Both the position numbers and the translations under genes were made by a program. A stretch of 62,846 nucleotides of DNA, filler included, from Collodictyon triciliatum (Eukaryota): the NCBI GenBank assembly GCA_043381765.1. It is 6 parts of 6 records of this genome, joined end to end, with 100 filler letters (N's around TTAATTAATTAA, not from the genome) between each part and the next. Parts side by side here need not be neighbours in the genome. Positions count along the whole stretch, not along the records: positions 12,024 to 23,950 come from JBHJMP010002278.1; positions 24,051 to 35,964 come from JBHJMP010002279.1; positions 36,065 to 47,978 come from JBHJMP010002280.1; positions 48,079 to 59,967 come from JBHJMP010002281.1; 2 more parts are not named here. One strand, 5' to 3'. Positions 21,238 to 58,001 of the stretch are shown piece by piece; position 1 is the stretch's first letter, and the number at the start of each line of letters is the position of its first letter. The notes beneath the pieces were generated by a model. The model did not search any database. It saw nothing but the letters and a program-made list of their open reading frames with translations, and had not been told where the DNA came from.

Positions 21238-21949
21238 CCTTATTATTGGCATATATGATTAAGTTGAATATACCTATCGCACTCAATATATCCTGTAGCT
21301 CATTGATATAAACTATCTGTATAAAAATTCTTTTAGATGTTTACCAGGGTCAATTCTGCGTCGGACATATTGTGAATAAGAACCCCAACTCCCATAATTC
21401 AAATGTACTCTTCGAAGAGTTTAAGAACGTCTATAAATTCTTCTCTAATAAATGCAAATTCTCCTATCTATACAAATAGAACGAAATATTTTAAAAATTA
21501 ACAATCACATGTTTTGATTTAATTGAGGCTCAAATGACTTAAAAAAAAAACTTTCAAGACGAACTCGCATGTTTGTCCTAATAGTTGTGCAATTTATATG
21601 CTTGAATGAAGTGCAAAGCATCATATATATTTGACCTTATTAAAGGATTGATTTATTACATGCTCTTATATGATAAACCCGAAACAAGTGGAGAAAAAAT
21701 AGCGCACCACGAGAAATGAGCCGATTCAATGTATTATTAGTATTAATTCAGAGAACCCAAAGCTAGGAGTGATTTTGTATTTACCCCAGCCTAAACTCGT
21801 GCACCGATAGATGTTCTGGCCTGTGAATTCGTGTACGTTTTATAGGAAAGTCTACCATATTATTTTCCCTTCTATTAATTAATTTATTATTTGATTCAGT
21901 CAACATCCATTTGTAACATCATACAGGCAGATAATACCTTTAACAAGGT

Positions 21950-22024
21950 GGGCACTTTGAATCGAATAAAGGAAAAAAAAACCTTCAACAAGGTGGGCAC
22001 TTTGAATCGAATAAGGGAAAAAAA
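21950..22024 (+). mobile_element. Two tandem ultra-short retroposed tails (21950-21980 and 21995-22024)
   Basis: GGGCACTTTGAATCGAATAARGG-A(n) occurs twice, flanked and separated by three copies of ACCTTYAACAAGGT (21936, 21981, 22025). Confidence 0.85.
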
Positions 22025-22382
22025 ACCTTCAACAAGGTAGGAATTACCGCAACTCTTTTCCTTTACTAATGATTATTTGAGACCTTGACAAACCTCTGTG
22101 CTCTATACGCATCTCTTGAGGAAAACAATTTGATATTACATCTCTCTCTATCTATAAATAAAAAAATAACAATTCATAAACAAAACAAAATCATGAGTAT
22201 TAATGTTGCTTATCAGTCCATTTATTCTTTCCATCACAATTGTGTTTGGACGATGAGATGAACTTCTTGATGTTTAAATCCAATAATGCCTTGTAAGAGA
22301 ATACTATTTTGTACTAGCTTCAGTAACAAAAATAAAATAAAAAATAGAAAGCTACGCGAGGGAAAGACCAACATAAAAAACC

Positions 22383-22406
22383 TTTGAATCGAATAACGGA
22401 AAAAAA
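22383..22406 (+). mobile_element. Ultra-short retroposed tail
   Basis: TTTGAATCGAATAACGG-A7 between 13-bp direct repeats AACATAAAAAACC / AACAAAAAAAACC. Confidence 0.75.
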
Positions 22407-22450
22407 AACAAAAAAAACCATTATAATTATAAAAAATATCACTGGGGACT

Positions 22451-22570
22451 CATTATTTCCTCAGAATTCCATACATACATACATACATACATACATACAT
22501 ACATACATACATACATACATACATACATACATACATACATACATACATACATACATACATACATACATAC
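22451..22570. repeat. (ATAC)n microsatellite
   Basis: 30 copies. Confidence 0.97.
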
Positions 22571-22914
22571 GTCAATCCTCTGGTATCTCCTGGCATTCAA
22601 GATTTCAGAAAAAAAAAATTAACAAACAGGAGTATAACCAATTCCATGGGCTTTAAGTCCAGCCAAACTTTCAGTTCCAGGAGGCAGCAATTTCTGAAAA
22701 TTTGATTAGAGATTCAGCCCCAACAAGCGGGTGAGCAGAAAGACACCAACCGGAATGCTTGTGAGGTCTCTTTCTCTCCTTTGGAGTTCCGAGCCTGCGC
22801 ACTTCTAGAGCTCGGTGGTGCATGGCTGCTAGCAAAAACAAAAAGGAACAAACAGAGGACATTATCTTTATTCTGTCTGGTTCCGCGAGTAAGACTGAGG
22901 CAACCCTAGGACAG

Positions 22915-23710
22915 TTAAACAGCCAGGGCCCAAACAGATGCCAGCCAGTTGCTGACTGCTTCGTCGATGGCTTCCACACCGCCCCGAGGATTCAGAAACG
23001 ATTCCAGCACAGGCAGGGACTTGGTGGACAAGGAAGAAAGTGAAGCCACAGACGCATGAGTTTCGCTTTGGACAATCCCGTGGACTGATGGGGTTGTGCG
23101 TCCTCGCACAGACTCTGGAATGTGTTCGCTGGCTGGTGAGCTGTAGGCTGGTTGGGCCAGGCCTGTAATCATACGCTCTATCTCGCAAACACACGCGCGA
23201 AACTCAGCCTAATAGATGGATTCATGATTGGTTATGACGTGTGCTTTTTTTTTTTTTTTTTAATAGCCGTTCCTTACAAAAGCGTGTAAATTAGCTAACG
23301 GAAAATAGTGAATAAACAATCCCATAAATAAAAAAAGACAAGGAGAGGGCAATAACATTTAGATAATATAAATATATCGTGTCTGCGAGGTCCTTGGGAA
23401 AGGATGTGCGGAAGAATCTGACACAGATAAAATAGGGAAATGACCTCAAGTTCCTCTGTCGTGTTGGATTGCATTTGCCCAATAGCATCTGCGCAACGCC
23501 TTCGGAGTGTTTGGACGCGGTCCCAAAGCTGAACCAACAGTGCTGAGTTCACTTCTCGTCCCACCAGGAAGTATTTGCGTTCCCGCTCAACAACAGCACT
23601 TTTGTCTACTTTTTCACCCTTTCCAGCGACAACAGGAACAGGATTTACTGGAAGGGGCGCAGCACGCACGATATATGCCATCAAGAAAGTTCTCTTGTAC
23701 GGTTTGCTAA
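22915..23710 (-). CDS. 3' exons of a hypothetical protein
   Basis: The exon ..RKYFLVGREVNSALLVQLWDRV..TTEELE splices in frame across a GT-AG intron (~23444-23211) to AEFRACVCEIERMITG..WALAV*. Confidence 0.55.
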
Positions 23711-23855
23711 GATTTGTGATTATGAAGTCAAATTAGTAAAGTACAGAAACATGAAAACAAAACAATAAAAGAAACCCTGCAGAGTCTTGATTAGATGTTG
23801 CTAGCTCTACCCATTGCGTTATGATTTGTCCTGAAAATATTTTAAACATAAGTAC

Positions 23856-23950
<95 letters not shown>

Positions 23951-24919
23951 NNNNNNNNNNNNNNNNNNNNNNNNNNNNNNNNNNNNNNNNNNNNTTAATT
24001 AATTAANNNNNNNNNNNNNNNNNNNNNNNNNNNNNNNNNNNNNNNNNNNNTTTGTTTTTTTGTTTTTTTGTTTTTTTGTTTTTTTGTTTTTTTTGTTTTT
24101 TGTTTCTTGTTTCTTGTTTCTTGTTTGTCATCTGAAAAGAAACATGCTTATCGATGGATGAAATACAAATCTTTCTAATTGAAAAAATTCAAACAAAGTG
24201 AGAAAAAGAAATAGATGGGGACAAGAAAAAAATGAATAGAGAGGGAGAAAAGAATGAAAGCATGTCAACGACGCGGTTGCATCCGGCCTCTGTTCTTGCC
24301 CAGTTCAAAGCGGTGGATGAAAGGAGTTGTAAGTACAATGTGACGAGTGCGCCAAAGAACTTACCAACTGAAATTCTGCTGCAGTGGGTGGGACATAAGG
24401 CTTCGGCTCCTCCATTCCGATCCAGTGCCGCACTCTGCTTCGCAACTCCTCAAACGACTGATTGGCCACGTAGGGATCTTCTCGTGTCGAGCGGTTTGAT
24501 CGCGTAGAGCTGCGGCGACTGCCACTCGAGACAGAAGGCGACTGCATCTGTGCGTCTGTATTGAAACGTCTTCGTGTTATCAACTGTGTGTAAAAGCGCG
24601 GCTTATCTTTGCCTTTCGTGATCTGCCTTGGTGGCTTTGTGATTGTGGACTATCAGATCACTCGCTGCGCAGGCATCTACGCAACACAAAACGACTTGCA
24701 CCGTTACAAATAGAATGGTATGCTAATATGATATTAGGTATATAAATCTTAAAGTCAATTTCAGAATGTATGTAGACTTAAGAGGTAAAATAAGATTGCA
24801 TGACACTTGTTAATATTGATTCCACATATGTATTATGATATTAATCAATATCCATCTCCTGCCTATTCCGCTTGTGTTTGATCAATCCATCACAAATCAA
24901 AACAGATACAAAACCTGAA

Positions 24920-25310
24920 AAACACAAAAAAACACAAAAAAAACACAAAAAAACACACATAAAAAACACACATAAAAAAACACACATAAAAAAACACACA
25001 TAAAAAAANNNNNNNNNNNNNNNNNNNNNNNNNNNNNNNNNNNNAAAACACACATAAAAAACACACATAAAAAACACACATAAAAAACACACATAAAAAA
25101 CACACATAAAAAACACACATAAAAAACACACATAAAAAACACACATAAAAAACACACATAAAAAACATACATAAAAAACATACATAAAAACACACATAAA
25201 AAACACACATAAAAAACACACATAAAAACACGTAAAAACACACACACAAAACACACATAAAAACACACAAAAACACACAAAAACACATAAAAACACGCAT
25301 AAAAACACAC
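24920..25310. repeat. (AAAAAACACACAT)n-like minisatellite with an internal N gap
   Basis: CA-rich 12-14 bp units ending just before the ATG at 25322. Confidence 0.9.
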
Positions 25311-25321
25311 GTCGCAGACCC

Positions 25322-27845: not shown

Positions 27846-28009
27846 ATAGTGATTCCACAAACCCAAAATATCATTTACACTAAAGAGATTAGGAACCAGT
27901 TCTATGTATAGTTAAACGCGATTGGATATCACAAAATTGCACTACTTATGAAACGGTTCCATCTTCAAAAAAGTATTCACCACGAGATAAGATCTGATTT
28001 TCACTTAAT

Positions 28010-28072
<63 letters not shown>

Positions 28073-29228
28073 TCCTTGTGTTTATATATTCGTACTCTTC
28101 AGCGCATCCAGAACAGCCACGAATTTCACTTTATCCGCCACCTCTCAAAGCGGCTTCGGAGAACCCTGTGGAACGACCACTCCTTACCTAATTCAAAAAA
28201 AAAAGAAATGAAAAAGGGATGTCAATTGAGCTGCAGTCCTTTTTCAGCTGTTATTTTCTCTTCACTGCCACGCTATATCATTTTATCGGTAGTTTGAATG
28301 ATTTCGTCTGGCCAAGGATAAGCAGTTTGTCTAAATACGTCTTTTAATCCGTTTGTGATTCGTAAGTGCCTCCGTTTCTCACATAAAGCAAGTGATTTTG
28401 TGATACTTTTCCCCTCTTATTTTTCCTTCTGTTCCCACCGCGTGATGGTATACATGTATATGTTCATGGGACAGCCTCTTGTAGATTCCTTACACAATCG
28501 AATTGTAACACACATATCATCGAGTGAATATCGGGTCTACAATTTATCATCCCTAATTTTCAATAAAAAAAATAAAATAAAATAAAGTATTATTCACTCA
28601 ACACATGACCCAATGAGTTGCCTGTGATGTGTAATGATTGAGATAAGGAGGACAAAATAAGAAAAAAAATTGGTTTATTTTGTTTTAATAGTTAATAATA
28701 TTGCGACACAGGAAAAGGGAAGAGAGAGAAAGAGAAAGAGAAAGCGAAAGTGAAAGTGAGGGAAAAGTGGACAATATACTCAGATTGCAGTGCTTGAATC
28801 GCTTAGTTCAGAAGTCCAAAAGACTGCTCCCCCATCAGCGCCTTCTTTTTTTCTTTCTTTACAATCTTTATCCAATCTCTCATCCAATAACGACGCGCAG
28901 GGCCGCTGCGTCTACTACTTTTTTTTTTCTCTTCTTCTTCCACCCTGTCCTCTTTTCTTTCTCTTACTGTACCAATCCAGTCATCTGCATCTACAAAACC
29001 AAATCCATCATAGAATCGCCATCCATTCAATAACAAATACAAGGGGAGAAACAAACGAGAAGAAAAAAAAAGGAAAAAAAAAGAAAGAAGATGATTAAAT
29101 CCAACCAACATCCAAGACCACGACTCACAAATTACACAGATGAGGCAAGCCATTCCAACCAAGAGAGAATACCACGAACAACAAAACAAAAGAAACAAAG
29201 GAAGCAGACAAGGAAGCAAGGGACCGAC

Positions 29229-30428
29229 CGCCTTCTGGGTGAGCCGGACAAGGGCAGGAGAGCCGGGGACGTATTCGACAAGGCCGAGGGCGGCAACGAG
29301 GTCGTAGTAGTATCTGTAGTTGTTGATGGGCTGGGAGGCGGTGGAGACGGAGGCGAGGGTGTCGGCCTCGGCCAGGCGGGCCTTGAGGTGAGTGTCGGGG
29401 ACGCCGGCGGGGAACGCCGGATGCATGGCGACGAGCGAGCGGACGAGCGGCTGCGCATACGCGGGGACGTCCCAGGCGCAGAGCGACGTGTCCACGCGGG
29501 GCGCACTTGCGCGGCACGCCTCGGGCAGCGACTGCCGCTCGTCCTCGTACTCGGCCCTGCACGCCACGCAGCACCGCACGCCCTCCACCGCGGCCGTGTG
29601 CTCCACGCAGACGCTTTGGTCGCACCACGGACACGGCCCCACCCGCGCCCGCGTCCGCTTGCGGCAGATGGTGCAGAAGCGCAGCAGCCCCGCGGATCCG
29701 GAGTCGTCTGCCCCGGATTCGTCTGCCCCGGATTGCTTCGCCCCGGATTGCTTCGCCTGCGCCTGCGCCTGCGCCTCGCGGTACTCGTCCTCGCACAGGT
29801 AGCAGGAGTAGAAGCCGTCGTACGTGCCCATGTGCTCCACGCAGACTGCAAAGTCGCAGAAGAAGCAGCGCACAACCGCAGGCCTCCTGCCCAGGCAGAT
29901 CTCGCACCGCTGCGCTGACGGCCGGTGCCGCGCTGGCGCTGCCTGTCCTTTGGCCCGCGCCTCGGCCGCGTACTCTGCCTCGCACTCTGTGCAGGAGTGG
30001 TATTGGTCGTACGAGACCATGTGTCTGCGGCACACGGTGAAGCTGCAGTGGAAGCACTCCTGCCCGTCGTCCAGCAGCTCCTCGCACAACGGGCAGAGCA
30101 CAGCCTCTTCCTCGTCCTCTCTTTCATCCTCGTCCTCGCCCTCGTCCTCGTCCTCGTTCTCTTCTTCGGGGTATTCAAACTCTGCCTCCCGCGTTGTGGC
30201 CTGATCGGGCGCGCGGGCGTCGTGTCCGCGGCTGGTCCGCTTCTGCAGCTCCTCCGCATCCTGCTCCAGACACACGCCGCACAGGCTCTCGCCTTTCGTT
30301 GCAAGCAGGCAGCCGAAGCAGAAGCGGTTGTAGCACGAGGCGCACTTTCTGTGGTTGTTTGTAAACAGCGTTGTTCCGCAGGCGAAGCAGTACACGTCCT
30401 TGGGCGTCTGGCCGGCCTCTTGTGCCAT
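29229..30428 (-). CDS. Protein with four Cys/His-rich zinc-binding modules (B-box/treble-clef-like); first exon
   Basis: C-x2-C-x(9-11)-C-x2-C-x4-C-x2-H/C-x(9-10)-C-x2-C occurs four times. A probable donor lies at 29228, after which the ORF runs into pyrimidine-rich intron-like sequence. Confidence 0.8.
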
Positions 30429-31446
30429 CCCGCTTGTCCCTTCCCTTGTCCCTCGTCTTTTTTTTTTTTTTTTCGATTAGTGTTGATCTATTTCTTTGAT
30501 TCTGTTACTGCTTCTTTTCTTTTCTTCTCTTCTTTGTGAAGGCTCTTCTCGCCTGTCTCGGAATCGAGTCCAGCGCGTCGAGATGAATCAGATGCTGGTG
30601 GATGATGGAAGGAAAAATACAAGACCGTCGATCTAAGTGTCCAGATTTGGAATATAGATTGTTCAATGAAACGAACCGGATACAGAGATACCAGCAAGCG
30701 CACGTGTAAGTTTTGACAACCTGCTTTGTCGCTGGCGTCCAAGAAGAAAAAAAGAAACATCCACTTATCTTCCATCGTACAAACGATGCATTTTTTTTTT
30801 TCATCAGGAGTTCAAAGTAACAATAAAATTTTAATAAATTAATCAAAATCTTTTGTTCTTTTTGTTTCAAGTATCATCCGGCAAAGTGGAATGTCTTTTG
30901 CTAATGCTTCAGTATTCGTNNNNNNNNNNNNNNNNNNNNNNNNNNNNNNNNNNNNNNNNNNNNNNNNNNNNNNNNNNNNNNNNNNNNNNNNNNNNNNNNN
31001 NNNNNNNNNNNNNNNNNNNNNNNNNNNNNNNNNNNNNNNNNNNNNNNNNNNNNNNNNNNNNNNNNNNNNNNNNNNNNNNNNNNNNNNNNNNNNNNNNNNN
31101 NNNNNNNNNNNNNNNNNNNNNNNNNNNNNNNNNNNNNNNNNNNNNNNNNNNNNNNNNNNNNNNNNNNNNNNNNNNNNNNNNNNNNNNNNNNNNNNNNNNN
31201 NNNNNNNNNNNNNNNNNNNNNNNNNNNNNNNNNNNNNNNNNNNNNNNNNNNNNNNNNNNNNNNNNNNNNNNNNNNNNNNNNNNNNNNNNNNNNNNNNNNN
31301 NNNNNNNNNNNNNNNNNNNNNNNNNNNNNNNNNNNNNNNNNNNNNNNNNNNNNNNNNNNNNNNNNNNNNNNNNNNNNNNNNNNNNNNNNNNNNNNNNNNN
31401 NNNNNNNNATAGTATGGTGCTTGGGTGGCTACTAGTTTTACATATT

Positions 31447-31470
31447 TTCCCTCTCATTTGATTCAAAGTA
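31447..31470 (-). mobile_element. Degenerate ultra-short retroposed tail
   Basis: TTCCCTCTCATTTGATTCAAAGTA between GCTACTAGTTTTACATATT and GCTATTATTTTACATATT. Confidence 0.6.
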
Positions 31471-31534
31471 GCTATTATTTTACATATTAGTTTTATCAGT
31501 AAAGTGTCACCCTTCAACTTGAGTCTGGTAAACC

Positions 31535-33734: not shown

Positions 33735-33831
<97 letters not shown>

Positions 33832-35449
33832 TTGTAAGGTCTGTGCATGGATAATGTGGCATATATAAAGTAAAAGCAAACCAAAAATCAAAGGAACAAA
33901 ATACAGAAAAGTATCATTTTTTTAAAAAAACTTTTTTTTAAGATATATCAAATAAACGAACCCCAACTATGGCAATATGGCTGGGTATTTGGTTTGTTTC
34001 ATATGTAAAATCATCACTCTGAGATAACATTTGGAAATCACTCGGTGCCTCCTCATTTGTCCAATCTACTTCAGTGATTCTGCATTGATATCTGATGTTG
34101 ATTACAATTTGACTTGAGGTGCGCTCTGAAGTTGGTATGGCTTTCTCAACTCTGTCATGGACTGGGCCCAATGGAACTTTAATTTCCTGAGCAAAAGATA
34201 AACAAAAGAACCAAAAACGTATATAAGCAAATTGGGTGAGGTGAGTGAGATATATAAATGGAATATTTTAGAATTTTTCTGCCTTGTGATATTATATTAT
34301 TTTCATTCGTATATGCTCATGCTTTGACTTACTTTGGTGTCAGAAAAGTCCATATTCCCAGGCTCCCCAAACTGAATTAAAAAGTCTCGTAATAATTCCA
34401 GAGTGAAGAAGGTACAACAACCAATTGGTTCGTATCGCTTTGGATCTGACTTTGTGATGATGATTTTAATATGCTTACCTTATGCAGGAATTCCTAGTTG
34501 GAAGCATTATACATTTTCCAGAGACCCACAAATATATGAAAAATGAAATGATAGTATTTGGGTGTGTATCTATATATAACCCTCACGTTTTCGTAAAGAA
34601 TAAGCCTCAAAATCGAGTTTGGATGTGCTAACTGGAAAATGAAGGGGCCGGTCCAAGACACGCTCCTTGATTCTTTCTTTACCTCCGTCTGATTCTCAGT
34701 GTTGCCGACAACCATGGTGCAATAGTAGGATCCAATATCTGTGGTGCGTTATGAGTGGAAGTTTAAAGAAAGGCTCGACCATGTCCTTTGAAATCTCATC
34801 TAAATCTCCAGATGTGATATTAAATCCTCTTTTCTGCAATCAGCCATGAGGTTCACGAACACCGGATTTTCATTGTGATTATATGGGAGCTTTTTCATAA
34901 GCATATTTTGACGGGAATAAAATCCTGACTTCATTCTTACCTTCAGGGAGAGCCTCTACATCGATAGCTTTGCAGACACGATTGGGCCGTTGCCAAGAAT
35001 AGTCATTATGATGGATTTCAGCGTTTTCTTTCTTTCTTTGTTGATTTTTTTAAAAAAAAAAATAAATATAACAGAATTACCTTCAATTGACAGCGACGCG
35101 CTGAGCCGGTTCTGCAGAACCATAATACTGAATCAGACCCAGTCAAATACACAAAAGACTTTTTTTTTTTTCTTCCTTTATTCGATTCAAAGACAAAAGA
35201 CTCATTATTGAGGTTGGTTGCAAAGAAAATACCAGAAAAGACATGCCAGGCTGAGCAACAAACCTTGTCGAGCCCGTACAGGCTCCCCTTTCCAAAGAGG
35301 CGGCCGTATTCTGCAAATCTGTCGAGTCGTTGATGAGTTTCCCTTGGGCGGGGAACAATCACTTGCGGCTTCACAACTTCGTAACTATGGGGCGCCGATT
35401 TGTTCCTGCGATGGCCGAACGCACGACTGGCAGCACCCGCCGGCTCCAT
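31535..35449 (-). CDS. Multi-C2-domain protein (possibly Munc13-like); multi-exon, 3' end runs into the N gap
   Basis: Three C2-like segments: SWTGPFIFQL..LRLILYE; ARGF..SPYFTLRIG..IDFYNE..DDYIGSI..GWFSI..GEAYISF; and IEARNI..VKTSAVKKSTSPVFGDIFSFPV..LEIVVWDKD. Confidence 0.8.
33734..33831. repeat. (CAA)n intronic microsatellite
   Basis: About 32 copies inside an intron of the C2 gene. Confidence 0.95.
35161..35192 (-). mobile_element. Ultra-short retroposed tail in an intron
   Basis: T11-CTTCCTTTATTCGATTCAAAG flanked by a perfect 10-bp TSD, ACAAAAGACT (35151-35160 and 35193-35202). Confidence 0.9.
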
Positions 35450-35803: not shown

Positions 35804-35910
35804 GTATGTATGTATGTATGTATGTATGTATGTATGTATGTATGTATGTATGTATGTATGTATGTATGTATGTATGTATGTATGTATGTATGTATGTATG
35901 TATGTATGTA
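35804..35910. repeat. (GTAT)n microsatellite
   Basis: About 27 copies, upstream of the C2 gene. Confidence 0.95.
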
Positions 35911-36414
35911 CGTGAATCTGGTCATCGTTTAGATGTGAGTCAAGGGTGTAATCGTTTAAGACTCNNNNNNNNNNNNNNNNNNNNNNNNNNNNNNNNNNNN
36001 NNNNNNNNTTAATTAATTAANNNNNNNNNNNNNNNNNNNNNNNNNNNNNNNNNNNNNNNNNNNNGAATGATAATACAGTCTTACATGAAAACAGTCTAGT
36101 CTTCGTACCTTGATATTGAATGACTAGTATGCTTTACTCTGGAATTCTTATCATTTTTTAAGGTGATGATTTTTTGTTCGCAGCATAATGTCATAATAAA
36201 GACACCAAAGTGAAATTCCAAAGATTCAAATGAACTTCCAGGTCGTTAAAAAGTAAAAACCTATTGTTAATTCTGCCTGCTGTGTCAAAAACCCTCTCTA
36301 GTGATGATATACCTTCGCACTCTTTCTTTTCAAATATTTTATCTGCCCCCTCTTTCTGTTCTCTATCAAGATACTTGGCATAGCCACCGTTACTGAAGCT
36401 GGACAGTTTGTCGC

Positions 36415-36445
<31 letters not shown>

Positions 36446-47830: not shown

Positions 47831-47858
47831 ATTTAAAAAGGTTAGAAAAATCCATGAG

Positions 47859-47978
<120 letters not shown>

Positions 47979-48277
47979 NNNNNNNNNNNNNNNNNNNNNN
48001 NNNNNNNNNNNNNNNNNNNNNNTTAATTAATTAANNNNNNNNNNNNNNNNNNNNNNNNNNNNNNNNNNNNNNNNNNNNAATAAAAAAACATGTTCCCTTT
48101 TTTTTCGCCTTTTTTTCTTTCATTTTTTTTTTTTTTTTTTTTTACTGTTGCTTTCTGTTCGACCCGGGCAACGAGCAGACGAACGTTTCCTTCTCTATCA
48201 CGGGCCTGGACGAGTGGCTATCATATCTTTCCCGTCCCGCTGTTTGTTTCTATCTTTCCTTGTCGGCAACTCAGGCT

Positions 48278-48330
48278 TTTTTTTTTCCTTTATTCGATTC
48301 AAAGTGTAGCGAGGTTATGCCATACAAAGG
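48278..48330 (-). mobile_element. 53-bp 5'-truncated retroposed tail
   Basis: T9-CCTTTATTCGATTCAAAGTGTAGCGAGGTTATGCCATACAAAGG with a perfect TSD, AACTCAGGCT (48268-48277 and 48331-48340). Confidence 0.92.
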
Positions 48331-48359
48331 AACTCAGGCTGATCGCAACGAAAAAGAAA

Positions 48360-50729
48360 TGATGCAACGCCGTTAATTCCACATATAGAATATACTGTTT
48401 GGGCGATAGGTTCGGTTTGATGATGTCAAGTTTGTGTGTGGTAATTATCCGCGTGAAGGATTTTTCAACGACTTCATGACGATTAATATCTTACTAATTA
48501 AAAGTAATGTATTTTTATAGTATATGTCATATAATGTTAAATGATCATATATTAAAGGCAAATTAAATTATATACTATACAATCCACAAATAGAATGATA
48601 GCGTCGCCTTTTTCTCTTTTCTCTCTTTTCTCTATTTCGATGCATAACCTGCTCTTTACCGTGTATTTAATTTCACCACACATGGAGCTCTATCCGCAGG
48701 TCTCGTAACAATCCTTTTTGTATCCTCTCTGTCACGAGCAAACCTTTCGCTTATTTCTCTAGTTCTCACCTGGAAGCATACATTTTTCATATTATAGACC
48801 CATGCAGTTTCTAATTACTGGCGATAGTTGCTTCCATCCATTTTTTTTTTTTTAAAGAGTTACTGAATCCATTCTATTTTTTTTCGTAGACACGACTCTC
48901 AATCCTTTCAATCAGGGTTCGTCGGCTTGGCCATCGTTTGGGTGATTTTTTCGCTCCGTGTATTTCTTTTTGGGATTATTCGAGTATTCATGGCCCAGTC
49001 TTTGGTCTCAAATTCTTGTCTATTGGTATGAATCTGTATGGACATATCACCTCTCAAGTCACTATTGTACGAATCTGTCAACTAACAGTTGCCTGAGTCC
49101 ACATCTATTCATATACTTTCATAATGCAGCTCGCTTATTATTTTTTTGTCGGATTTTTTTTTTTATGTGGAGTAATACACTCATTTGTTTTACCAGGGTT
49201 CCGTATGGAGTGCAATTCAACACATTCTCATTACTTATTCTCTTCTATGGTTCCTTGATTCATGAAAGAGCTCCATGGTAAGAATATAAGCACATTACTT
49301 GGCCCATATTTTTTGGACTCAACACACTGATATGCGGGTTTATTGGAGGTAAACATACATGCACATTTTTTTCTTTTTGATATTTCTTTCGAACACGCTT
49401 TGTATGACAAGTAATTGTATTTTTATTTTATTTTCCTTTTCTTTTTAAACAAAAATTCGTGGGTGAGTGTGTTCGCGATATATTTTATTATTATTATTAT
49501 TACTATTATTACTGTTGTTTTCATTTCTTTTGCAATGCGTCTGAAAAATGAAGTCCTAAGTACACCTTTATCAAACTCATATATGTAGGCTGGATTGGCG
49601 TTGGAGTAACATATGGGTCCAGCGAATCTTTAGAAAGAGTGGTCTCATATTTTGCATCATTCATCTACTTACTTTTGTCAATACTGCTCACTTATTATGG
49701 AATAATGGTCCATAAGCGGCCGGATGGATACAATGTAAGTGTTCCCCTCTTTCAATATAAGCCGGTTTAAAGTGAATAAATGCAACATAAATTCATTCGG
49801 TATGAAAAGCAGCTGGATTCAAATAATTTTTGTCCTTGCTATTGTAGTCAATTACAGGTTGTTCGTACATAGAATGTATATAGAAAATGTAATTCATATT
49901 ATAACCACATAGATGCACGTTTTATATCGGACATCAGAATATTCATGGCCTGTGCTTACCGGAGTTTTAATATTTTCGTTCTATTCCCGGTCTTTCTTCA
50001 ATCTTTACTTCGCCATCGAGCCAAAGAGTGTTGCATCTCCCCATCGCCGCGTAAGTTCGAAAATGCCGAAACAAACAAGGACTACGTCAGTGATAAGATA
50101 TATTGTGATAAAATAACCCGCTCTTTTTCAATTTAGGCGATTGACTATGACTTGGATACGGAGTACTGCATATGGAGCTTTGTATGGGAATTGATACCAG
50201 TTATCCTAATCCTCACATTCTTCAAGGTATCAGTAAATTTCACAAACTTTAATTCAAATATGAAATTATTATATCATCTAAATGGTGACCTTGGTAAATG
50301 CAGTTATTTTCACAATTGCATTGAGTTGTATTTAAAACTTCTCATCACTTTGCTTTCATATTCAGTCATGTGTTTACTTTCCTTATTTGACCAATAAAAA
50401 CACATAATTGGAACAACGTTTTAGATTCCTGATATTGAAAATATGTTCAAGAGAAAATCACGTGCTCATCTGGAGAATCTGCCGCCGCTCCTTTACATGA
50501 ATATCAATTGTTCGTACTTTTACTCGAGCCATTTGATTCTTTCTAGACATTTCTGTCACATATAATTGTATAAATGCATGCCATCTGATAGGAGTTTTAT
50601 TATATGAATTTAACAGCCCCACCAGGTGAGCATAACTACTTCCAGAACCCTCGCCGATATGACAGCGAAGACGAAGAAGACTCAGAGTCTTCATCTCTCC
50701 TGGAATCCCCTATCGAGATACAAAGCTAA
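48360..50729 (+). pseudogene. GPR137: GPR137-like lysosomal 7TM protein with an apparent frameshift and in-frame stop (pseudogene or assembly errors); 5' end approximate
   Basis: SFQSGFVGLAIVW, VPYGVQFNTFSLL, FVWELIPVILILTFFK and YFQNPRRYDSED resemble GPR137 motifs. There is an extra T in the run at 48946-48951 and a TAA at 49279-49281 inside an exon. Confidence 0.75.
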
Positions 50730-51004
50730 CACTGGACTTAGTTCTCCATACATACTTTCCCTCTCATTCGTTAATTCAGTTCATAGGCCATTAAAGCAAA
50801 TATAATATGTTGTTTTTGGAGGGAACAAAGCATTCACTTGCAGGTCTATATGACGTAGAAGGTTAAATTTGTTTGCGTTTTCTTTTGTTGAAAAAAAAAA
50901 GAACAAAGAAACTTCGAATCAAGATGAGCAACAAAGGAAGATAGAAAAGAATGCTCGAAGAGGCTTTTTTTCTTTCTTTTTTTTGTTTTGCCAACCACTT
51001 TTTT

Positions 51005-51760
51005 TTAAACAGAAGAAACGTGGTGGTAGTGATGGCGAGTTCTGGATTCCAGTGTATGAAGTTGCCTGAGCTTGATATAAAAGAACCATACCGAACCGAT
51101 GATATTTGTTATCATGCCAGCAACAGCCCAGTGGTGGAAATCTGAGATTGTAGGCAGGACAAGTTCACTCATCACTGAGGCGAATACATGCTTTGCGTTT
51201 CCGATTGCAGACATGGTTAGAGGCGTTTTTATATTAGCACATAGGAAGACCGCTTTCTTAATTAGAGTTTGTCTCTCATTCATCTTTGTCAAACTTGGGG
51301 GGTTTAAAGACAATAGATACGAGTAAGTAAGGCGAGATAAAAATTATAGGAAAGTTACGCAAAGTATGAAAGCGCTATTTCTACACTATATGGATACCAA
51401 TAACACGTAATAAGAAAAAAAATTCTTCCAAGATGAACGAGATAAAAAAGAATCGAGTTGATTACAAAGACGGACGATAATCGACGAGCAGCGATGGATG
51501 TGGGTATTGTACTCCTGGATAAGCTTGCGGTACCGAAAATCATGCTAACCAGAAAACAAATGTAAAGAGAAAGTACCTATGAATATTTAAGCGTAATTGT
51601 GACGTAAGAAGTATTAAGGATAAAATATAAACTACTCCGACAAAAGAACGTTCTATAAAAATATAGACCCGATGAGTTGGAGATTTCAGTAAGGCGAAGA
51701 CAATACAATCACAAAAGCGATACCAATATGATATGTTTGTATAGGTGCTCAGAGACCTAA
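51005..51760 (-). pseudogene. SLC35-type nucleotide-sugar transporter fragment, apparently degraded
   Basis: VFLCANIKTPLTMSAIGNAKHVFASV..AVAGMITNIIGSVWFFYIK resembles the last TM pair of SLC35/TPT transporters. Upstream hydrophobic frames are broken. Confidence 0.4.
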
Positions 51761-52298
51761 TTTATTAGTTGTATCTCATTCAGCTTGAATATCTGAAATC
51801 CTGTTGCCCTTCTTTATCGAAAATGCTTGTGAGGCTCCCGGCTCGACCTTCACCTTCTCTGTTTCCAGCCCACATCCCCGCAATCAAGATTGCAAGAAAG
51901 ACTACCCGTGCATGGCTTCGCCAACCGAATATTAATTTCCAATAATAGATAAAATATCACAAAACGGCAAAATACAAATTTGGAAAAACAAGATTTTTTC
52001 TTTTATCAGAAAAAATTAACCGCCACAACTCTGCCAAGCGCCAGCGGTTACATTGTTGCTGGTGATAAGGACACAAGAAACCGCAAAGCATGTGGCTATC
52101 TTCTCGACGCCTTTGGTTGCGTACTCTGCGTGCGAATGTAGAGGCCGCCCCCGTACTTTCACACCCGCTCAACATCCAAAACATCTTGAAATCATGCTGA
52201 TTCCTACTCCCAAATGTCTTGCAGACAAAGCCTGGGACGATCTTCGGTCCGTCGGATCCTATTGAGCCTCGTAACCGTTGAGAGAAAGGTAGAGTGTG

Positions 52299-54770
52299 AT
52301 GAAAGTAGCTGTGCTTACACATAATCCTCTTGAGTCAGTCGGTGAGAGAGCATGTATTAGTAAAGAGCCATCAGGAATCGACATTTCTGGTGCTATAGGC
52401 AGCCCAGGGACTGCTAGACAAATTGCCTTTACATGGAGCGAAAATGTAGAGGCCTTTCCTTCTTCAAGTTCAACACATGGCAAGGCTGATGTCATGGCCA
52501 ATCGTTCTGTATCACACCACTTCATTGAGAAAAAAACCCTGTCATTTCTGGGGTATAAAAGAACTGAAAGCCCAACAGACCCAAACGTAAATGAGCAGTC
52601 TCAACCACATTTTTCCGAAATTCAAGATTCTCAAGAGCCCAGACACATGATAGCACCTGTTCCCTGGAACCATGAATGCCGATTGGATGATGTTCTCATC
52701 GCTCCTGTAGAACAAGTTATTCTAGTGAATGCATCTCACTCTTTTGTGCATAGTTTAGGGGGCCAAGTCGCATCTCGGTTCCTTGTCCGATTCACATCCA
52801 AAATGCAACCTGTTTTCATCAGTATTTGGTTTTTGGATTGCATCTTTTGTCTTGTGAGTTTTTTAGGAAGTTCATACATCCCACCATGGGTGTGTTCAGT
52901 TGCTGGCTGTATTACATCCTTTTACTTGGCAATTTTGATGATAATGTTACAGAAAAATGTGGTTAGACGCATCATCATGAATTTCGAAACATCATACCTT
53001 TTAATTATTGCCCTTCTCAATAGCTATTTCCTAGCAGATATTCTTTGTTGGAACCCTGCTTATATGTCTTCCGTTGTGGCTTGCTATTTTTCATTTACTT
53101 TCGGTATATTCATGGACGGTAATTCAATATCTTTTAAGAAATTCGATCAAGGCTTTAATGATGCTCTTTTGAAGAATTTTTCATTAGAAGAGCAGGATCA
53201 GCACAGTTTGAATACTCCTTTTATTCTCAATCACCCGACCCTAAATACTGCCATATCCGGATGGGTTAACGCAGTAGTTGACAAGCAGAATGGAAGAATT
53301 CGCCATCTTATAACTCAGTTGTCTGTTATGAATTTGTTCCATCCGTGGTACCAATACGTCATCACAGCTTTATGTGGGATAACCAACCAGTTGGGAATAT
53401 ACATCATGATAAGATATGACCTCATGCCCCAAAAGTGTATTCGCACAGTAAAAATTATGTGGATGGAATGGGATTCAGATGAAATCCTTTTACTTTTATG
53501 TGCCCATCTTGTGCTATTTTTAACTAAGAGAATAGTTATTATGGCTTTACGTCCCGGACGGGTGGCAGCTATAAAAAGGAATATGATGATGATACCTTTG
53601 GTCCCATATTGGCACCACATCGATTTGTGTATTCAAAGCTTAGAAAATCGAGGGAAAGGACCAAGATTAGAGGTATCTAATCAAAGCATTAGCCGAAACT
53701 TTGAAAAGCTTGCAGCCTACTTTAAGGAACATCGATTATTGGCTCTTTTTTGTCCGAGTTCCATATATTCATTTCCTTACCAGCCCAAGCAGACTCACCA
53801 ATTTTCAGAAAAGCTTGAAAAAATTCTTAGTTATGTACATTCCTTTTGGTTTTACCTTTGGATGTTCTCCATCCCAGTTAGTGTCATATCCTTGTCATGT
53901 CTGGATAAAAATAATTTTCCTTTCTTTGGCTTCGTTTGCAGTGCAGGATTTATGTATGGAACCAAATATTTCAGGGGTTATTGTTACAAAATTTTATTTG
54001 AATCGGTATACTCGTTTGAAAATGTTTATGTCTTTCTATGCTTCAATTTGGCTTGTTTTTCATTGGCAGACTACTTGACGTGGAGTAGTCCCAAAACATA
54101 TATATCCGTACCTCTAATATATCTTGTTTATTTTCACAGCCTGTTCCATGGCGCTAAAAAAAGAGATAATGAGACATTTAATAACAATCTACGGAGGCTG
54201 TTTCAAGACAATTTTGATGAAATCAACAACACACCATTTACTCGTCACCTTTTACAGTCTATCCGCTGCTATGGTGCATATGTAAACTCCAAAAGTCAAA
54301 GGTTACTTCCGGGGGCTATTCAATATGATCATAATTTATACCCGACCATAAACCTCGATGAGCTTGAAAGTCATGACTGGTCGGTCGAGCATATCATTGC
54401 TCCTTTTCCAAGAATGACTAGAAAGGAGTGGTGGGTATATACGAAACTATTCGGGACTTACCATTTATTCATGAACTGGATATCAGTTATTCTCACAATT
54501 GCCATATACATCACAATTGAGACGGAAAATATCTCTACTGGCGAAGAGCGTATAATCAGCCTAGGGATTTTAAATTTATCCAATAGGGCTGTGTTGAATT
54601 CCTCACTGTCCAATCTCTTTCTCTTTTGCTTGAAACGTTCATTGGCATCCACGTTTAACCCCTTTGTTGTGTCCTTATTCGAAGTGGATCATTTGCGTAT
54701 CCCTATTGTCATAAGTTTACTGAAATACATGAAGTATTTGCAGGAATCCAGCAAGAGCAATATTACTTGA
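52299..54770 (+). CDS. Single-exon duplicated-domain membrane protein (paralog 3)
   Basis: 823-aa ORF. Halves are FETSYL..MDGNSISF..MIPLV and FENVYV..RIPIV. Confidence 0.9.
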   Translation: MKVAVLTHNPLESVGERACISKEPSGIDISGAIGSPGTARQIAFTWSENVEAFPSSSSTHGKADVMANRSVSHHFIEKKTLSFLGYKRTESPTDPNVNEQSQPHFSEIQDSQEPRHMIAPVPWNHECRLDDVLIAPVEQVILVNASHSFVHSLGGQVASRFLVRFTSKMQPVFISIWFLDCIFCLVSFLGSSYIPPWVCSVAGCITSFYLAILMIMLQKNVVRRIIMNFETSYLLIIALLNSYFLADILCWNPAYMSSVVACYFSFTFGIFMDGNSISFKKFDQGFNDALLKNFSLEEQDQHSLNTPFILNHPTLNTAISGWVNAVVDKQNGRIRHLITQLSVMNLFHPWYQYVITALCGITNQLGIYIMIRYDLMPQKCIRTVKIMWMEWDSDEILLLLCAHLVLFLTKRIVIMALRPGRVAAIKRNMMMIPLVPYWHHIDLCIQSLENRGKGPRLEVSNQSISRNFEKLAAYFKEHRLLALFCPSSIYSFPYQPKQTHQFSEKLEKILSYVHSFWFYLWMFSIPVSVISLSCLDKNNFPFFGFVCSAGFMYGTKYFRGYCYKILFESVYSFENVYVFLCFNLACFSLADYLTWSSPKTYISVPLIYLVYFHSLFHGAKKRDNETFNNNLRRLFQDNFDEINNTPFTRHLLQSIRCYGAYVNSKSQRLLPGAIQYDHNLYPTINLDELESHDWSVEHIIAPFPRMTRKEWWVYTKLFGTYHLFMNWISVILTIAIYITIETENISTGEERIISLGILNLSNRAVLNSSLSNLFLFCLKRSLASTFNPFVVSLFEVDHLRIPIVISLLKYMKYLQESSKSNIT

Positions 54771-54834
54771 CAAGGTTATTCTGGATGAACAAAGTTACCT
54801 CTCGTTTGTACTGATTTAAATATCGTCAATGCTT

Positions 54835-54856
54835 CTTTGAAGCGAATAAAGGAAAA
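54835..54856 (+). mobile_element. Ultra-short retroposed tail
   Basis: CTTTGAAGCGAATAAAGGAAAA between 17-bp repeats AAATATYGTCAATGCTT (54818-54834 and 54857-54873). Confidence 0.85.
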
Positions 54857-54921
54857 AAATATTGTCAATGCTTTTATCAGGGTTTCACCGCAGACAAAAT
54901 TAAAATATGTAACTGAAAGTT

Positions 54922-55157
54922 TTTTTCCCCTTTATTCGATTCAAAGCGCAGCGAGATTATGCCATTAAAAGAAGTGAGACGGGAGCGCATGGGAGAGAGC
55001 AAACGCGATAAGAGAAGACACTACCGTGGAGAGGCGAGCGCTGGAAATAAATCAGTGATGGCGAGTTGGTCAGGCGGGCATCCCAACTGGTTGATTGGTT
55101 GCATGGGTAGCAGTGGTTGGATATGCTGTGGGAGATATCGCACGACACATTCCCATC
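54922..55157 (-). mobile_element. 236-bp 5'-truncated non-LTR retroelement 3' end (longest family copy)
   Basis: It has the same 3' terminus and aligns with the 53-bp copy. Perfect 14-bp TSD TGTAACTGAAAGTT (54908-54921 and 55158-55171). Confidence 0.92.
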
Positions 55158-56179
55158 TGTAACTGAAAGTTAAATATGAAAGAAAGAAGAAGAAAAAAAA
55201 ACGAACGAACACTTTGGGCATATGCATTTGTCTTTTGTCTTTTCTTGTTTTTCTTTCTAGCTGACCCACCAACCAAGACCCAAAGCGAACGGACAAGAAA
55301 TAATTGTAACTTGCATCACTTTTCGTATCGCTCCTTGTTTTGCCGCATTTTTTTTTATCCTTTCTCTCAATTTGCGTGACCAGGAATTAAAAGTGTTGGT
55401 ACCATGGAAGTTTTTATTTTCTTTTCGAGACGAACACACTAAGCAGACCCAAAAATAAAAAAAAGTAATATTACTGTTGTCAACGCCATACTTGATAATT
55501 TAAAGTCCTAGGGGCGTTCCATAGGACTTGTCTCGTGGGCAGTTCGAGCATCCAAACACTCGCTGAAAAGTAATAAAGTAATAAAAGGGAAAATGAAAAG
55601 AAAAAACATCATCAGTCCTGAAGAACCCGTGCGCGGCAAGCGAGGATAGGATGAAAGAACGGTCAAAAGAAGCGGAAAGGGGTGATGATGTGCTTCGCTA
55701 ACCCCTCGTCGCTGCGCCCTTGCCACTGGCTATTTGAGCCACCCGGTTTCCAAACACATCTCAGAGGCAAAGCCCCACGAGACAAAACACGCCACCAAAT
55801 CCCGAACCGAATTGGGTGAAAAGAAACCAAAGAGTAAGCCGGGTTGAGAAGATAGAAAATAATTTTAATAATAAAAAAATTAGGAGAATGAAACAGAAAG
55901 TGAAATCAAAAGGCTCTGCTTAATTTACTGCGGAGTCGGCCACCCTCCTTTTGATCGCTGCGATCTTGTCGATCATTTTCTTTGCTTTGCCGCTTCATTT
56001 TCAGGCTTTGCCCTCTAGTAGCAACATACATCCGCAAGCACTCGATCTTCAACTGATTTATCGTGAACTGTTGATTGAGAATAGATAAATATACAGCTGT
56101 CGGAGTCTCGCTTGTGCAAAGGTTATAACGCAAGCTCGATTTCTTAGATCAGCCCCCTTCAGAAGACCCAACTAAAACG

Positions 56180-58001
56180 ATGGCCTCTGTCAAAATAAAC
56201 ATCCGCACCGCTGGTTACGATCCGAATCAGCAGTTGCTCGTTGAGATACCAGGGGCAGAAACAGTGGGGGAGCTGAAGAATAGGGTATTATATAGTTCAT
56301 GATCCAAGCATTCACAACCTTAAAACATGAAAGAAATGACATAAACTCATAAACGAGTTTGAACAGGCCCAATGCACAAATTGTGGTATTATCACCTATA
56401 TATTATAGAGGTGATAATACCACACAAATATTATTTTTAATTTATTTATTTATTTTTTAAAAAAAAAGAAAACATAACATGAGATCATTTCCTTAACATT
56501 TTTTTTTCGATCTACGCTAATTAAAAAAAAAAAAAAAAGAAGCAAAGATGGCGTAAATGTTCCTTTGGAGCGATAAAATAAGGATTTAGAGGAAATGTCG
56601 GTCTATGACACCCCAATGCGCTTTAACTCCCTTCTTCCCATAAAAACCGCAGATTACGCAATCACATCCATCCCATCCTATCCCATCACAACAGCGTCTC
56701 ATCTATGCTGGTGCTATTCTTCGAGATGAACAAAAAATAGCGGACGTTTTTTATCAGGTTTGGGGGTTTCACCTATGATCGTATGCTATTGTAGTCCGGA
56801 GTTCTTCCTTGAGTAAATATATCATTTAGGGCTGTCATGGAATATGTTTCACATAAAGAACGAGAATTGATCCGTTATCTTTCTATTGCTACAGCTATAT
56901 TTTTATTTTTGAAAACAGCGAGTAAAAAAGAATTTCGTTTTACTACCACAGAATCAACCTGATTTCAGTTATGTGGCCCACCTAGTCATATCTAACTCAA
57001 CGTCAGATCCACAGACCTCCTCTAGTAGGGCAACTCAAAACCAAACAGAAACAAACCAAAGCTTCCCTAATCAACTCCAATATCCAGGCCCGTACTACAA
57101 TCATCTATATGCAAATTACCCTCCGTTTGCTTTCAATTCTCCGCTTGCATTTACGTAAATATTACATCATTATGTTGCAGTAAATCAACCATTTTTGAAA
57201 CAAATTTCGTCTACTTTATTTCTCAGTTTAAGCAGACCTTTTTTTCTTTTAATTTTCTTGTTAAAAAATCGACAATCTAGAAAACAATTTACCATAGCCC
57301 AAATGCAAATATCAGCGCTTTATTTTGCATCATGTATGGTCTAAGGTGTTCTCAACTATTAGGGACTCATACTATGAAGGGCAAGGGGTCTCACATAACC
57401 CTTACCATCAACACGGAGGCCACTACTTTCAACCATATAATGGATTCACTCAAACACACCCACAAATATCACCACAGCAACAACAACAACAACAACAACA
57501 ACCACAAATACATCAACCACAAATACCTCAACAAGTACAACAACCCCAAATACCTCAACAAAATCCCCAGGTTTTTGTCCGACATTTTCAGTTCGATTTA
57601 AGCGTCGCTTTTCGTTATCTAATGTTTGCCCTAATTCTCTATTCTGCTATACCTGGAGGAGAGTCTATGGTCAGTACGTCTCAAATATACCTACTGGCCT
57701 TGCTTTGGTTATTGTGAGTCCCCCATTAAATTCTCTTTATATCACCTTGTATTTCAATCCTTACTGCTAATGTCTTAACGGCCACTCTCATTACCGTCAC
57801 TCATATAATTATTTTGAACTCTAATTGAGAAAGGCTTAATCTTGTAACTAATGCATGATTCAATATGAAACAATCTTACTTTTTTTTCCCCTCCGCTCGT
57901 TTCAAAGACGAAATAATCTAACATAGTGACATATATCTCTACTTAGATTTCAAATGGGTTTTTTTCAATTCAACGTCCAAGTTAGAGGATTCAGACAATA
58001 G
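56180..58001 (+). CDS. HERP/HERPUD-like protein (N-terminal ubiquitin-like domain, C-terminal TM segments); 3' end uncertain
   Basis: TVGELKNR|ITQSHPSHPIPSQQRLIYAGAILRDEQKIADVF..VAHLV, then a Q/Y-rich linker and hydrophobic FRYLMFALILY..FQMGFF. Confidence 0.8.
56382..56424. mobile_element. 43-bp palindromic MITE-like insert in an intron
   Basis: Perfect 16-bp inverted repeat TGTGGTATTATCACCT / AGGTGATAATACCACA, flanked by the direct repeat CAAAT. Confidence 0.65.
57880..57907 (-). mobile_element. Degenerate ultra-short retroposed tail in an intron
   Basis: T8-CCCCTCCGCTCGTTTCAAAG between ATGAAACAATCTTAC and ACGAAATAATCTAAC. Confidence 0.65.

What the first reader, a model, noticed from the sequence alone, without database searches (positions are those of the whole stretch)
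21936..57922. Dispersed family of ultra-short retroposed insertions, each with its own TSD
Seen: nine copies on both strands and on three contigs share the 3' end CTTTGAATCGAATAAAGG-A(n). They lie at 21950-21980, 21995-22024, 22383-22406, 31447-31470, 35161-35192, 48278-48330, 54835-54856, 54922-55157 and 57880-57907. Each site has a different 10-19 bp direct repeat. Seven inserts are only 22-32 bp, scarcely longer than their TSD. Established: a shared polyA 3' end, variable 5' truncation and variable-length TSDs are the signature of target-primed reverse transcription by non-LTR retrotransposons. Inference: this is a high-copy, long-active family, since TSDs range from perfect to decayed. It mostly deposits only its last ~20 nt plus tail, which standard repeat finders would miss.
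Basis: partly seen in the sequence, partly recalled or inferred. Interest (0 to 1): 0.85.

Follow-up and report, generated by a model that had tools for sequence, protein, structure and literature searches.

The report
Ultra-short truncated LINE tail insertions
These are genuine dead-on-arrival copies of one LINE-type jumping gene, ordinary in kind, and unusual only because most kept just the element's last 18 letters plus its poly(A) tail.

Summary
The 18-mer CTTTGAATCGAATAAAGG occurs 7 times at up to 3 mismatches, against 0.10 expected. Each hit is followed by an A-run. Seven of the nine listed sites have flanking direct repeats of 10-18 bp that 11 of 369 random control positions equal. A motif-blind scan of 171 A-runs gave 7 poly(A)+repeat candidates, and 6 of them are this family.

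The interpretation also holds, because a parent exists. One metagenome contig (L008) carries the same terminus behind about 1 kb of reverse-transcriptase-associated coding sequence. It has a zf-RVT domain above Pfam's cut-off. The 236-bp window copy keeps the last 43 codons, at 91% amino-acid identity to L008. Overlapping protein fragments align in order with full-length proteins that carry endonuclease, RT and zf-RVT domains. The best solved match of those proteins is human LINE-1 ORF2p.

So these are 5'-truncated copies of a poly(A), L1-like non-LTR retrotransposon, inserted by target-primed reverse transcription. That is a new member of a known kind.

One oddity remains. Four of eight independent events start at exactly the same base, 18 nt before the tail (simulated P about 2e-4). 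No RNA structure or junction microhomology explains this. I found no empty sites and no full-length master element, and the organism is unidentified.

The parts
21937..22043 (+). Site A, arranged as repeat-insert-repeat-insert-repeat. The 18-bp repeat lies at 21937-21954, 21982-21999 and 22026-22043. The inserts lie at 21955-21981 (exact 18-mer + A9) and 22000-22025 (18-mer with 1 mismatch + A8).
   Evidence: The middle repeat has the 5' variant of the right copy (CCTTC) and the 3' variant of the left copy (GGTGGGCA). That is the pattern expected after one insertion followed by unequal recombination between its two repeats (inference from reading).
22371..22418 (+). Site B. Insert at 22382-22407 (18-mer with 1 mismatch + A8). 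It lies between A-rich 11-bp repeats at 22371-22381 and 22408-22418, which match at 10/11.
   Evidence: The repeat is low-complexity and was not scored as significant.
31436..31488 (-). Site C. A 31-bp insert at 31447-31477 with a variant end (4 mismatches to the 18-mer, short A-run) and 9 nt of upstream element-like sequence. It lies between perfect 11-bp repeats at 31436-31446 and 31478-31488.
35151..35202 (-). Site D. Insert at 35161-35192 (exact 18-mer + AAGA11) between perfect 10-bp repeats.
48268..48340 (-). Site E. A 53-bp insert at 48278-48330 (last 44 nt of the 3'UTR + A9) between perfect 10-bp repeats.
   Evidence: The 44 nt are identical to L008 (alignment A1).
54821..54873 (+). Site F. 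Insert at 54835-54859 (18-mer with 1 mismatch + A7) between 14-bp repeats matching at 13/14. It lies 65 nt downstream of the stop of ORF 52293-54770, in the same orientation.
   Evidence: An RNA contig of X1 ends in its A-run (table 8, record 4).
54908..55171 (-). Site G, the longest copy. The insert spans 54922 to 55154/55157 (233-236 bp) between perfect 14-bp repeats, or 17 bp with 1 mismatch.
   Evidence: It matches L008 at 206 of 227 aligned columns.
55021..55152 (-). Inside site G: the last 43 codons plus the stop codon of the element's RT-bearing ORF. The 3'UTR follows down to 54929, then the A-run.
   Evidence: 39 of 43 residues identical to the L008 frame, E 9e-28.
57867..57922 (-). 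Site H, a possible old or variant copy. The 30-bp insert at 57880-57909 has 5 mismatches to the 18-mer and ends GGGG + A8. The 13-bp flanking repeats match at 11/13.
   Evidence: On their own, neither the motif nor the repeat is above chance.

Best explanation
The inserts are dead-on-arrival, 5'-truncated copies of one family (perhaps two subfamilies) of a poly(A)-tailed, L1-like non-LTR retrotransposon.

Mechanism, established for this class and inferred here:
1. The element's endonuclease nicks one DNA strand.
2. The exposed 3' end, which ends in T at most of these sites because most repeats begin with A, anneals to the poly(A) tail of the element's RNA.
3. That end primes reverse transcription of the RNA (target-primed reverse transcription).
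4. A second nick 10-18 bp away on the other strand produces the site-specific direct repeats.

In this organism the cDNA usually ends very early. Four of eight independent events in the window end exactly 18 nt from the tail. The others end at about 20, 27, 44 and about 226-229 nt.

I take the sharp 18-nt end to be a preferred stop, set either by the template RNA or by the enzyme-RNA complex. This is inferred and the cause is not shown.

Each insert carries AATAAA immediately before its A-run.
For: - Motif excess: 7 observed against 0.10 expected.
- Flanking repeats: 7 of 9 sites score 10 or more, against 11 of 369 random controls.
- Motif-blind scan: 7 poly(A)+repeat candidates among 171 A-runs, and 6 of them are this family.
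- Nested 5' ends on a common 3' end (alignment A1).
- Parent element: L008 has the identical terminal 44 nt and an A-run behind an ORF with zf-RVT PF13966, at 32.4 bits against a cut-off of 27.5.
- The 236-bp copy retains 43 in-frame codons at 91% identity.
- Fragments P0022 and P0029 align in order with residues 950-1201 and 701-882 of P0013 (E 8e-24 and 3e-30).
- P0013-P0016 carry Exo_endo_phos and RVT_1, and three of the four also match zf-RVT below Pfam's cut-off.
- P0013 matches human LINE-1 ORF2p best, at E 3.4e-57, against about 1e-23 for R2.
- Spliced RNA contigs of two runs pile up on the element, with up to 23 contigs over one position and many different flanks.
- Shared 18-nt start: simulated P of 2.4e-4 to 2.4e-3.
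Against: - No RT or endonuclease sequence of the family itself was recovered. The link to a complete ORF2 runs through fragments 57-98% identical to one another and then through relatives at only 28-32% identity.
- No full-length or intact copy was seen.
- No empty site was seen.
- Only eight independent events could be examined. Two of them (B, H) have weak repeats.
- The 18-nt pile-up has no demonstrated cause. The 18-mer is predicted unfolded (0 kcal/mol) and the 3'UTR folds no better than shuffles, with z between -0.63 and +0.98.
- The organism is unidentified.
Confidence: 0.88

Rival explanations
1. Same retrotransposition machinery, but the 18-nt units are copied from a distinct short RNA. 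This would be a 3' fragment of the element's transcript with its 5' end at the C of CTTTG, for example a decay or cleavage product protected by bound protein. The enzyme would then run off the end of the template, rather than stall on a full-length RNA.
For: The 5' ends are exact to the base at four unrelated targets. I read no consistent microhomology with the target at those junctions. No predicted structure could stall the enzyme. No copy shorter than 18 nt turned up in either the motif search or the blind scan.
Against: No RNA 5'-end data exist, because the runs are kept only as contigs. Copies of 27, 44 and about 229 nt show that longer templates are also used. The sample is small.
Confidence: 0.25
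2. The family is a non-autonomous SINE-like element, or a retroposed cellular mRNA, rather than a truncated LINE.
For: All window copies are short (25-236 bp) and there is no RT ORF in the window.
Against: The longest copy and L008 run in order into an ORF with zf-RVT. Rfam finds no tRNA, 7SL or 5S match anywhere in the window. The 5' ends are nested truncations, not a fixed head.
Confidence: 0.03
3. The short inserts are filler captured during double-strand-break repair, or are assembly or adapter artefacts, and not endonuclease-dependent retrotransposition.
For: Inserts of 25-32 bp are in the size range of repair filler. The assembly is a fragmented draft whose contig ends lie in simple repeats.
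Against: Break repair does not make 10-18 bp duplications of the target. The terminus is found independently in a metagenome contig (L008). It is also found in contigs of runs X1, X2 and X3, from two studies.
Confidence: 0.02

Closest known systems
LINE-1 (L1) superfamily non-LTR retrotransposons, such as human L1
   Same: - Poly(A) tail directly behind an AATAAA.
- Variable-length target-site duplications, here 10-18 bp.
- Nested 5' truncation.
- The parent's C-terminal region has the cysteine-histidine zf-RVT domain.
- It aligns in order with proteins of endonuclease-RT-zf-RVT layout, whose best solved match is human L1 ORF2p.
   Different: - Only 28-32% identity to those full-length relatives.
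- No clear T-rich/A-rich nick-site consensus at the eight sites (reading).
- The length distribution is far shorter. Half of the events are exactly 18 nt, whereas human L1 copies average on the order of 1 kb (recalled, not from a call).
Ylli, the L1-clade LINE of the yeast Yarrowia lipolytica
   Same: It is an L1-like element with poly(A) tracts that survives mostly as very short 5'-truncated pieces. Strain CLIB89 has 17 full-length copies, 7 copies over 1 kb and 104 fragments between 30 bp and 1 kb (PMC5014426, passages read).
   Different: [quoted passage not shown] Here they are clear. No discrete minimal unit is described in the passages I read. No sequence relationship to Ylli was tested.
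SINEs and other LINE-tail-dependent non-autonomous retroposons
   Same: They share the 3' tail of a partner LINE, and the LINE's enzyme inserts them.
   Different: They have their own promoter-bearing head and propagate. The 18-nt units here have no head and cannot be transcribed on their own, so each is an end product. No tRNA, 7SL or 5S match was found.

Membership tests
APE-type poly(A) non-LTR retrotransposon (L1-like) | Reverse transcriptase domain in the element's ORF | tested here: inconclusive
   No RVT_1 hit was found in any fragment of the family itself. Fragment P0029 aligns to P0013 residues 701-882, overlapping the end of P0013's RVT_1 domain at 502-749.
APE-type poly(A) non-LTR retrotransposon (L1-like) | Apurinic-type endonuclease domain | tested here: inconclusive
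   Seen only in the distant full-length relatives P0013-P0016 (Exo_endo_phos). No 5' part of this family was recovered.
APE-type poly(A) non-LTR retrotransposon (L1-like) | C-terminal cysteine-histidine (zf-RVT) domain downstream of the RT | tested here: met
   PF13966 at 32.4 bits against a cut-off of 27.5 in L008. It is also above the cut-off in P0005, P0006, P0008, P0011, P0019 and P0022.
APE-type poly(A) non-LTR retrotransposon (L1-like) | Common 3' end with a poly(A) tail | tested here: met
APE-type poly(A) non-LTR retrotransposon (L1-like) | Variable-length target-site duplications, different at each site | tested here: met
   Seven of 9 sites are above controls.
APE-type poly(A) non-LTR retrotransposon (L1-like) | Variable 5' truncation | tested here: met
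   The 5' ends lie at 18, about 20, 27, 44 and about 229 nt.
APE-type poly(A) non-LTR retrotransposon (L1-like) | ORF1 and a full-length master copy | not testable with these tools
   No genome is held. The longest piece found is 1.16 kb.
SINE | Promoter-bearing head derived from tRNA, 7SL or 5S RNA | tested here: not met
   Rfam gave 0 matches in the window. The longest copy is ORF2 coding sequence plus 3'UTR.

The most novel reading that the evidence does not exclude
The last 18 nt plus poly(A) form a discrete module. It would be the minimal piece of template that this L1-like enzyme holds and copies, so most insertion attempts end at a programmed point. That would make it the shortest regularly retroposed unit described.

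Each unit carries AATAAA followed by an A-run. The family would then scatter ready-made polyadenylation signals through the genome. One such unit lies 65 nt behind the stop codon of ORF 52293-54770, in the same orientation, and an RNA contig ends in its A-run.
Probability: 0.2. Interest if true: 0.6.

Novelty: new member of a known kind. Interest (0 to 1): 0.35.

Why it matters
In kind this is textbook LINE biology, so the main value is practical. Inserts of 25-32 bp fall below what repeat maskers detect, yet they occur about once per 7-8 kb here: 8 events in 61,881 non-N bases. They could therefore account for many unexplained small insertions and A-runs in this genome.

The sharp 18-nt end point is the one feature worth following up. 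What sets the 5' end of a LINE insertion is still debated. A natural system with one dominant, base-exact stop would make that question experimentally approachable. Inserts that each carry AATAAA could also alter the 3' ends of host genes.

Tried and rejected
- **Rfam:** 0 matches in the window.
- **Metagenome scan with the exact 18-mer:** 35 loci. Of these, 34 lack both an A-run and upstream similarity, so I treat them as chance matches. Only L008 belongs to the family.
- **Other collections:** Viral contigs and genome contigs gave 0 matches.
- **Protein word-index searches for longer relatives:** none found.
- **Protein Atlas:** no usable hit for ORF P0001. A flippase exon gave only 'Eukaryota', so the organism stays unidentified.
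- **Pfam on window ORFs:** 11 ORFs and 110 ORFs gave no RT or endonuclease in the window.
- **Sequencing runs:** no RNA holder is listed on record.
- **Empty alleles:** none of the joints shown skips an insert. Five joints were not shown, and large parts of the stretch had no cover.
- **RNA structure as the cause of the 18-nt stop:** the 18-mer folds at 0 kcal/mol. The 3'UTR z-scores are +0.11 and +0.98, and those of the terminal 53-59 nt are -0.63 and -0.24.
- **Microhomology between target end and element at the 5' junction:** I read at most 1-2 nt, and not consistently.
- **Copies shorter than 18 nt:** none recognised.
- **Literature:** four searches found no description of this terminus or of an 18-nt retroposed unit. 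Only open-access full text and preprints were searched.
- **Earlier findings of this scan:** none.
Full report
**What the window is.** The 62,846 bases are six pieces of about 11.9 kb. They are joined by artificial spacers (44 N, TTAATTAATTAA, 44 N) at 11924-12023, 23951-24050, 35965-36064, 47979-48078 and 59968-60067. There are two ordinary gaps, at 25009-25044 and 30920-31408. Most of the piece ends shown lie in simple repeats.

The organism is a eukaryote with spliceosomal introns. Contigs of runs X1 and X3 skip seven and two GT..AG intervals of 86-368 bases (table 5). No whole genome is held, and I could not name the organism.

**The observation.** CTTTGAATCGAATAAAGG occurs 7 times at up to 3 mismatches (four exact, three with one mismatch). 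Chance expectation is 0.10, and 0 of 100 shuffles reach 7. All seven hits are followed by an A-run of 7-14 bases.

The copy at 31451-31468(-) has 4 mismatches and the copy at 57890-57907(-) has 5. At up to 5 mismatches the window yields 21 hits, most without an A-run, so the motif alone does not establish these two.

I scored flanking direct repeats with a fixed rule: the downstream copy must abut the tail, and the upstream copy may end anywhere within 300 bases. Seven of nine sites score 10 or more. Among 369 random control positions (400 drawn, 31 dropped for N), 11 do so. I did not inspect those 11 positions. The window is rich in simple repeats.

- Site 22382 has an A-rich 10/11 repeat that the script absorbed into the tail (read by eye).
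- Site 57880 has only 11/13, which half of the controls equal.

A motif-blind scan took all 171 runs of 7 or more A on both strands. It asked for a repeat of at least 10 bp between the base after the run and the 600 bases upstream. This returned 7 candidates, of which 6 are this family (sites A1, A2, D, E, F, G). The seventh is a 13-mer with one mismatch 544 bases away. The scan missed sites B, C and H. I think this is because of its filters: a short A-run at C, a low-complexity repeat at B and mismatches at H.

**The parent element.** The exact 18-mer hit 35 loci in the metagenome contigs. Of these, 34 have neither an A-run nor any upstream likeness, so I take them to be chance matches.

The remaining locus, L008 (1,157 bases), reads on its minus strand as follows:
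- an open frame that runs off the contig;
- one frameshift;
- a stop codon;
- about 96 nt of 3'UTR that ends in the 18-mer;
- A10.

The frame carries zf-RVT (PF13966), the zinc-binding domain found behind the reverse transcriptase of many non-LTR elements. It scores 32.4 bits against a curated cut-off of 27.5.

The link to the window copies is direct:
- The 53-bp window copy is identical to L008 over all 44 non-tail bases.
- The 236-bp copy matches L008 at 206 of 227 aligned columns.
- The 236-bp copy keeps 43 in-frame codons and the stop, with 39 of 43 residues identical.
- Six RNA contigs of X1 continue beyond the 5' edge of the 236-bp copy. Their consensus matches the next 30 bases of L008 at 28 positions, by my reading table 7.

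An exhaustive HMMER search with the 202-residue L008 frame gave 14 hits.
- Seven are short fragments at 59-98% identity, and one (P0017) shares a 27-residue stretch at 89%. A longer cluster mate of one fragment, P0019 (359 aa), shows the same frame without the frameshift.
- Four are full-length proteins of 1,226-1,275 residues at 29-38% identity. All four have Exo_endo_phos and RVT_1, and three also show zf-RVT below its cut-off.
- Fragment P0022 aligns to residues 950-1201 of P0013 (E 8e-24).
- Fragment P0029 was reached through P0021. It aligns to residues 701-882 of P0013, overlapping the end of the RT domain (E 3e-30).
- P0013 matches human LINE-1 ORF2p best among solved structures, at E 3.4e-57 against about 1e-23 for R2 proteins.

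The parent is therefore an L1-like element. This rests on a chain of overlapping fragments, not on an intact copy of the family.

**How the inserts arose.** A shared poly(A) 3' end, nested 5' ends and a different 10-18 bp duplication at each site are the signature of target-primed reverse transcription. That rests on established knowledge of this class. Most repeats begin with A, as expected if a T-ended nick anneals to the tail. I see no stronger nick-site consensus in eight sites.

The two inserts at 21955 and 22000 share one target. The middle repeat copy combines the 5' variant of the right copy with the 3' variant of the left copy. That fits one insertion followed by unequal recombination between its repeats better than two hits at one site (inference). 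I therefore count eight independent events.

**The residual oddity.** Four of the eight events (A, B, D, F) begin at exactly the C of CTTTG, 18 nt before the tail. Site B is ambiguous by one base. The other events begin at about 20, 27, 44 and about 226-229 nt.

If seven short events had 5' ends spread evenly over 15-60 nt, four or more would share one end with probability 2.4e-4. For six events spread over 15-32 nt the probability is 2.4e-3.

This is not a product of searching with an 18-mer. The blind scan is motif-free, and neither it nor a scan for shorter tails found copies under 18 nt.

I found no cause:
- The 18-mer is predicted unfolded.
- The 3'UTR and its terminal 53-59 nt fold no better than shuffles.
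- The junctions show no consistent microhomology.

The 44-nt copy also begins at a CTTTG, preceded by one C. I note this without explanation.

**Other evidence from the runs.** Summed contig depth over the two longer copies is 458-606 in X1 and 401-597 in X3, against mostly under 20 in neighbouring bins. Up to 19 contigs (X1) and 23 contigs (X3) cover single positions. The flanks beyond the tail differ between contigs (tables 2, 3, 7).

The family is therefore multi-copy and present in RNA-derived assemblies of two coded organisms, and in a freshwater metagenome run. Depth summed over copies is not a measure of expression. None of the joints shown skips an insert, so no empty allele was seen.

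**Comparison with what is known.** Severe 5' truncation of L1-like elements is ordinary. The closest precedent I could read is Ylli of Yarrowia lipolytica: 17 full-length copies, 7 over 1 kb and 104 fragments of 30 bp to 1 kb, with no target-site duplications identified (PMC5014426, passages). The figure for the mean length of human L1 copies is recalled, not taken from a call. Four literature searches found nothing on this terminus or on a fixed 18-nt unit.

**Verdict.** It is a new family of a known kind. The extreme shortness and the base-exact 18-nt start are a modest curiosity that a genome-wide length histogram would confirm or dissolve.

Noticed in passing
window 11924-12023, 23951-24050, 35965-36064, 47979-48078, 59968-60067: The window is not one locus. 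It is six contigs of about 11.9 kb joined by artificial spacers (N44-TTAATTAATTAA-N44). Most of the contig ends shown lie in simple repeats or homopolymers.
   Followed up: yes
window 16033-18636(-), 52293-54770(+), 4543-8190(+): Three long intron-free ORFs of 867, 825 and 1,215 codons have many hydrophobic segments and no Pfam family. P0001 and P0002 are distant paralogues (E 1e-11, 21% identity). Each looks internally duplicated and ends with an R-[IVM]-P-[LI]-V motif, which P0003 also shows by eye.
   Followed up: partly
window 54835-54859: The 18-nt insert with its AATAAA lies 65 nt behind the stop codon of ORF 52293-54770, on the same strand. An X1 RNA contig (693 nt) covers 54180-54859 and stops in the insert's A-run, with 13 further unaligned letters. 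An X3 contig stops at 54849 (table 8). This could be a donated polyadenylation site, or merely a contig break at a repeat.
   Followed up: no
window 50760-50800(-) and 31447-31477(-): A stretch at 50760-50800 shares TTTAATGGC and AATGAGAGGGAAA with the element's 3'UTR and with the variant end of the copy at 31447. I saw no flanking repeat. It may be a tenth, decayed copy, or a second subfamily with a different terminus.
   Followed up: partly
window 48890-50617(+): A multi-exon gene with six consecutive GT..AG introns of 86-240 bases is supported by one spliced X1 contig (table 5). X1 and X3 differ from the window at many of its positions, so they are not the same strain as the assembly.
   Followed up: no
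window 13208-13534(-): An exon encodes the N-terminal domain of a phospholipid-translocating P4-ATPase (PF16209, E 1.3e-19). It is the only strong Pfam hit among 110 ORFs.
   Followed up: no
window 57439: An X1 contig carries a 21-base insertion, nearly palindromic, relative to the window (table 4).
   Followed up: no
window 28803-30476(-): This ORF of 557 codons has four repeats of a cysteine-rich module (C-x2-C ... H ... C-x2-C) separated by acidic or alanine-rich linkers. It has no Pfam family.
   Followed up: no
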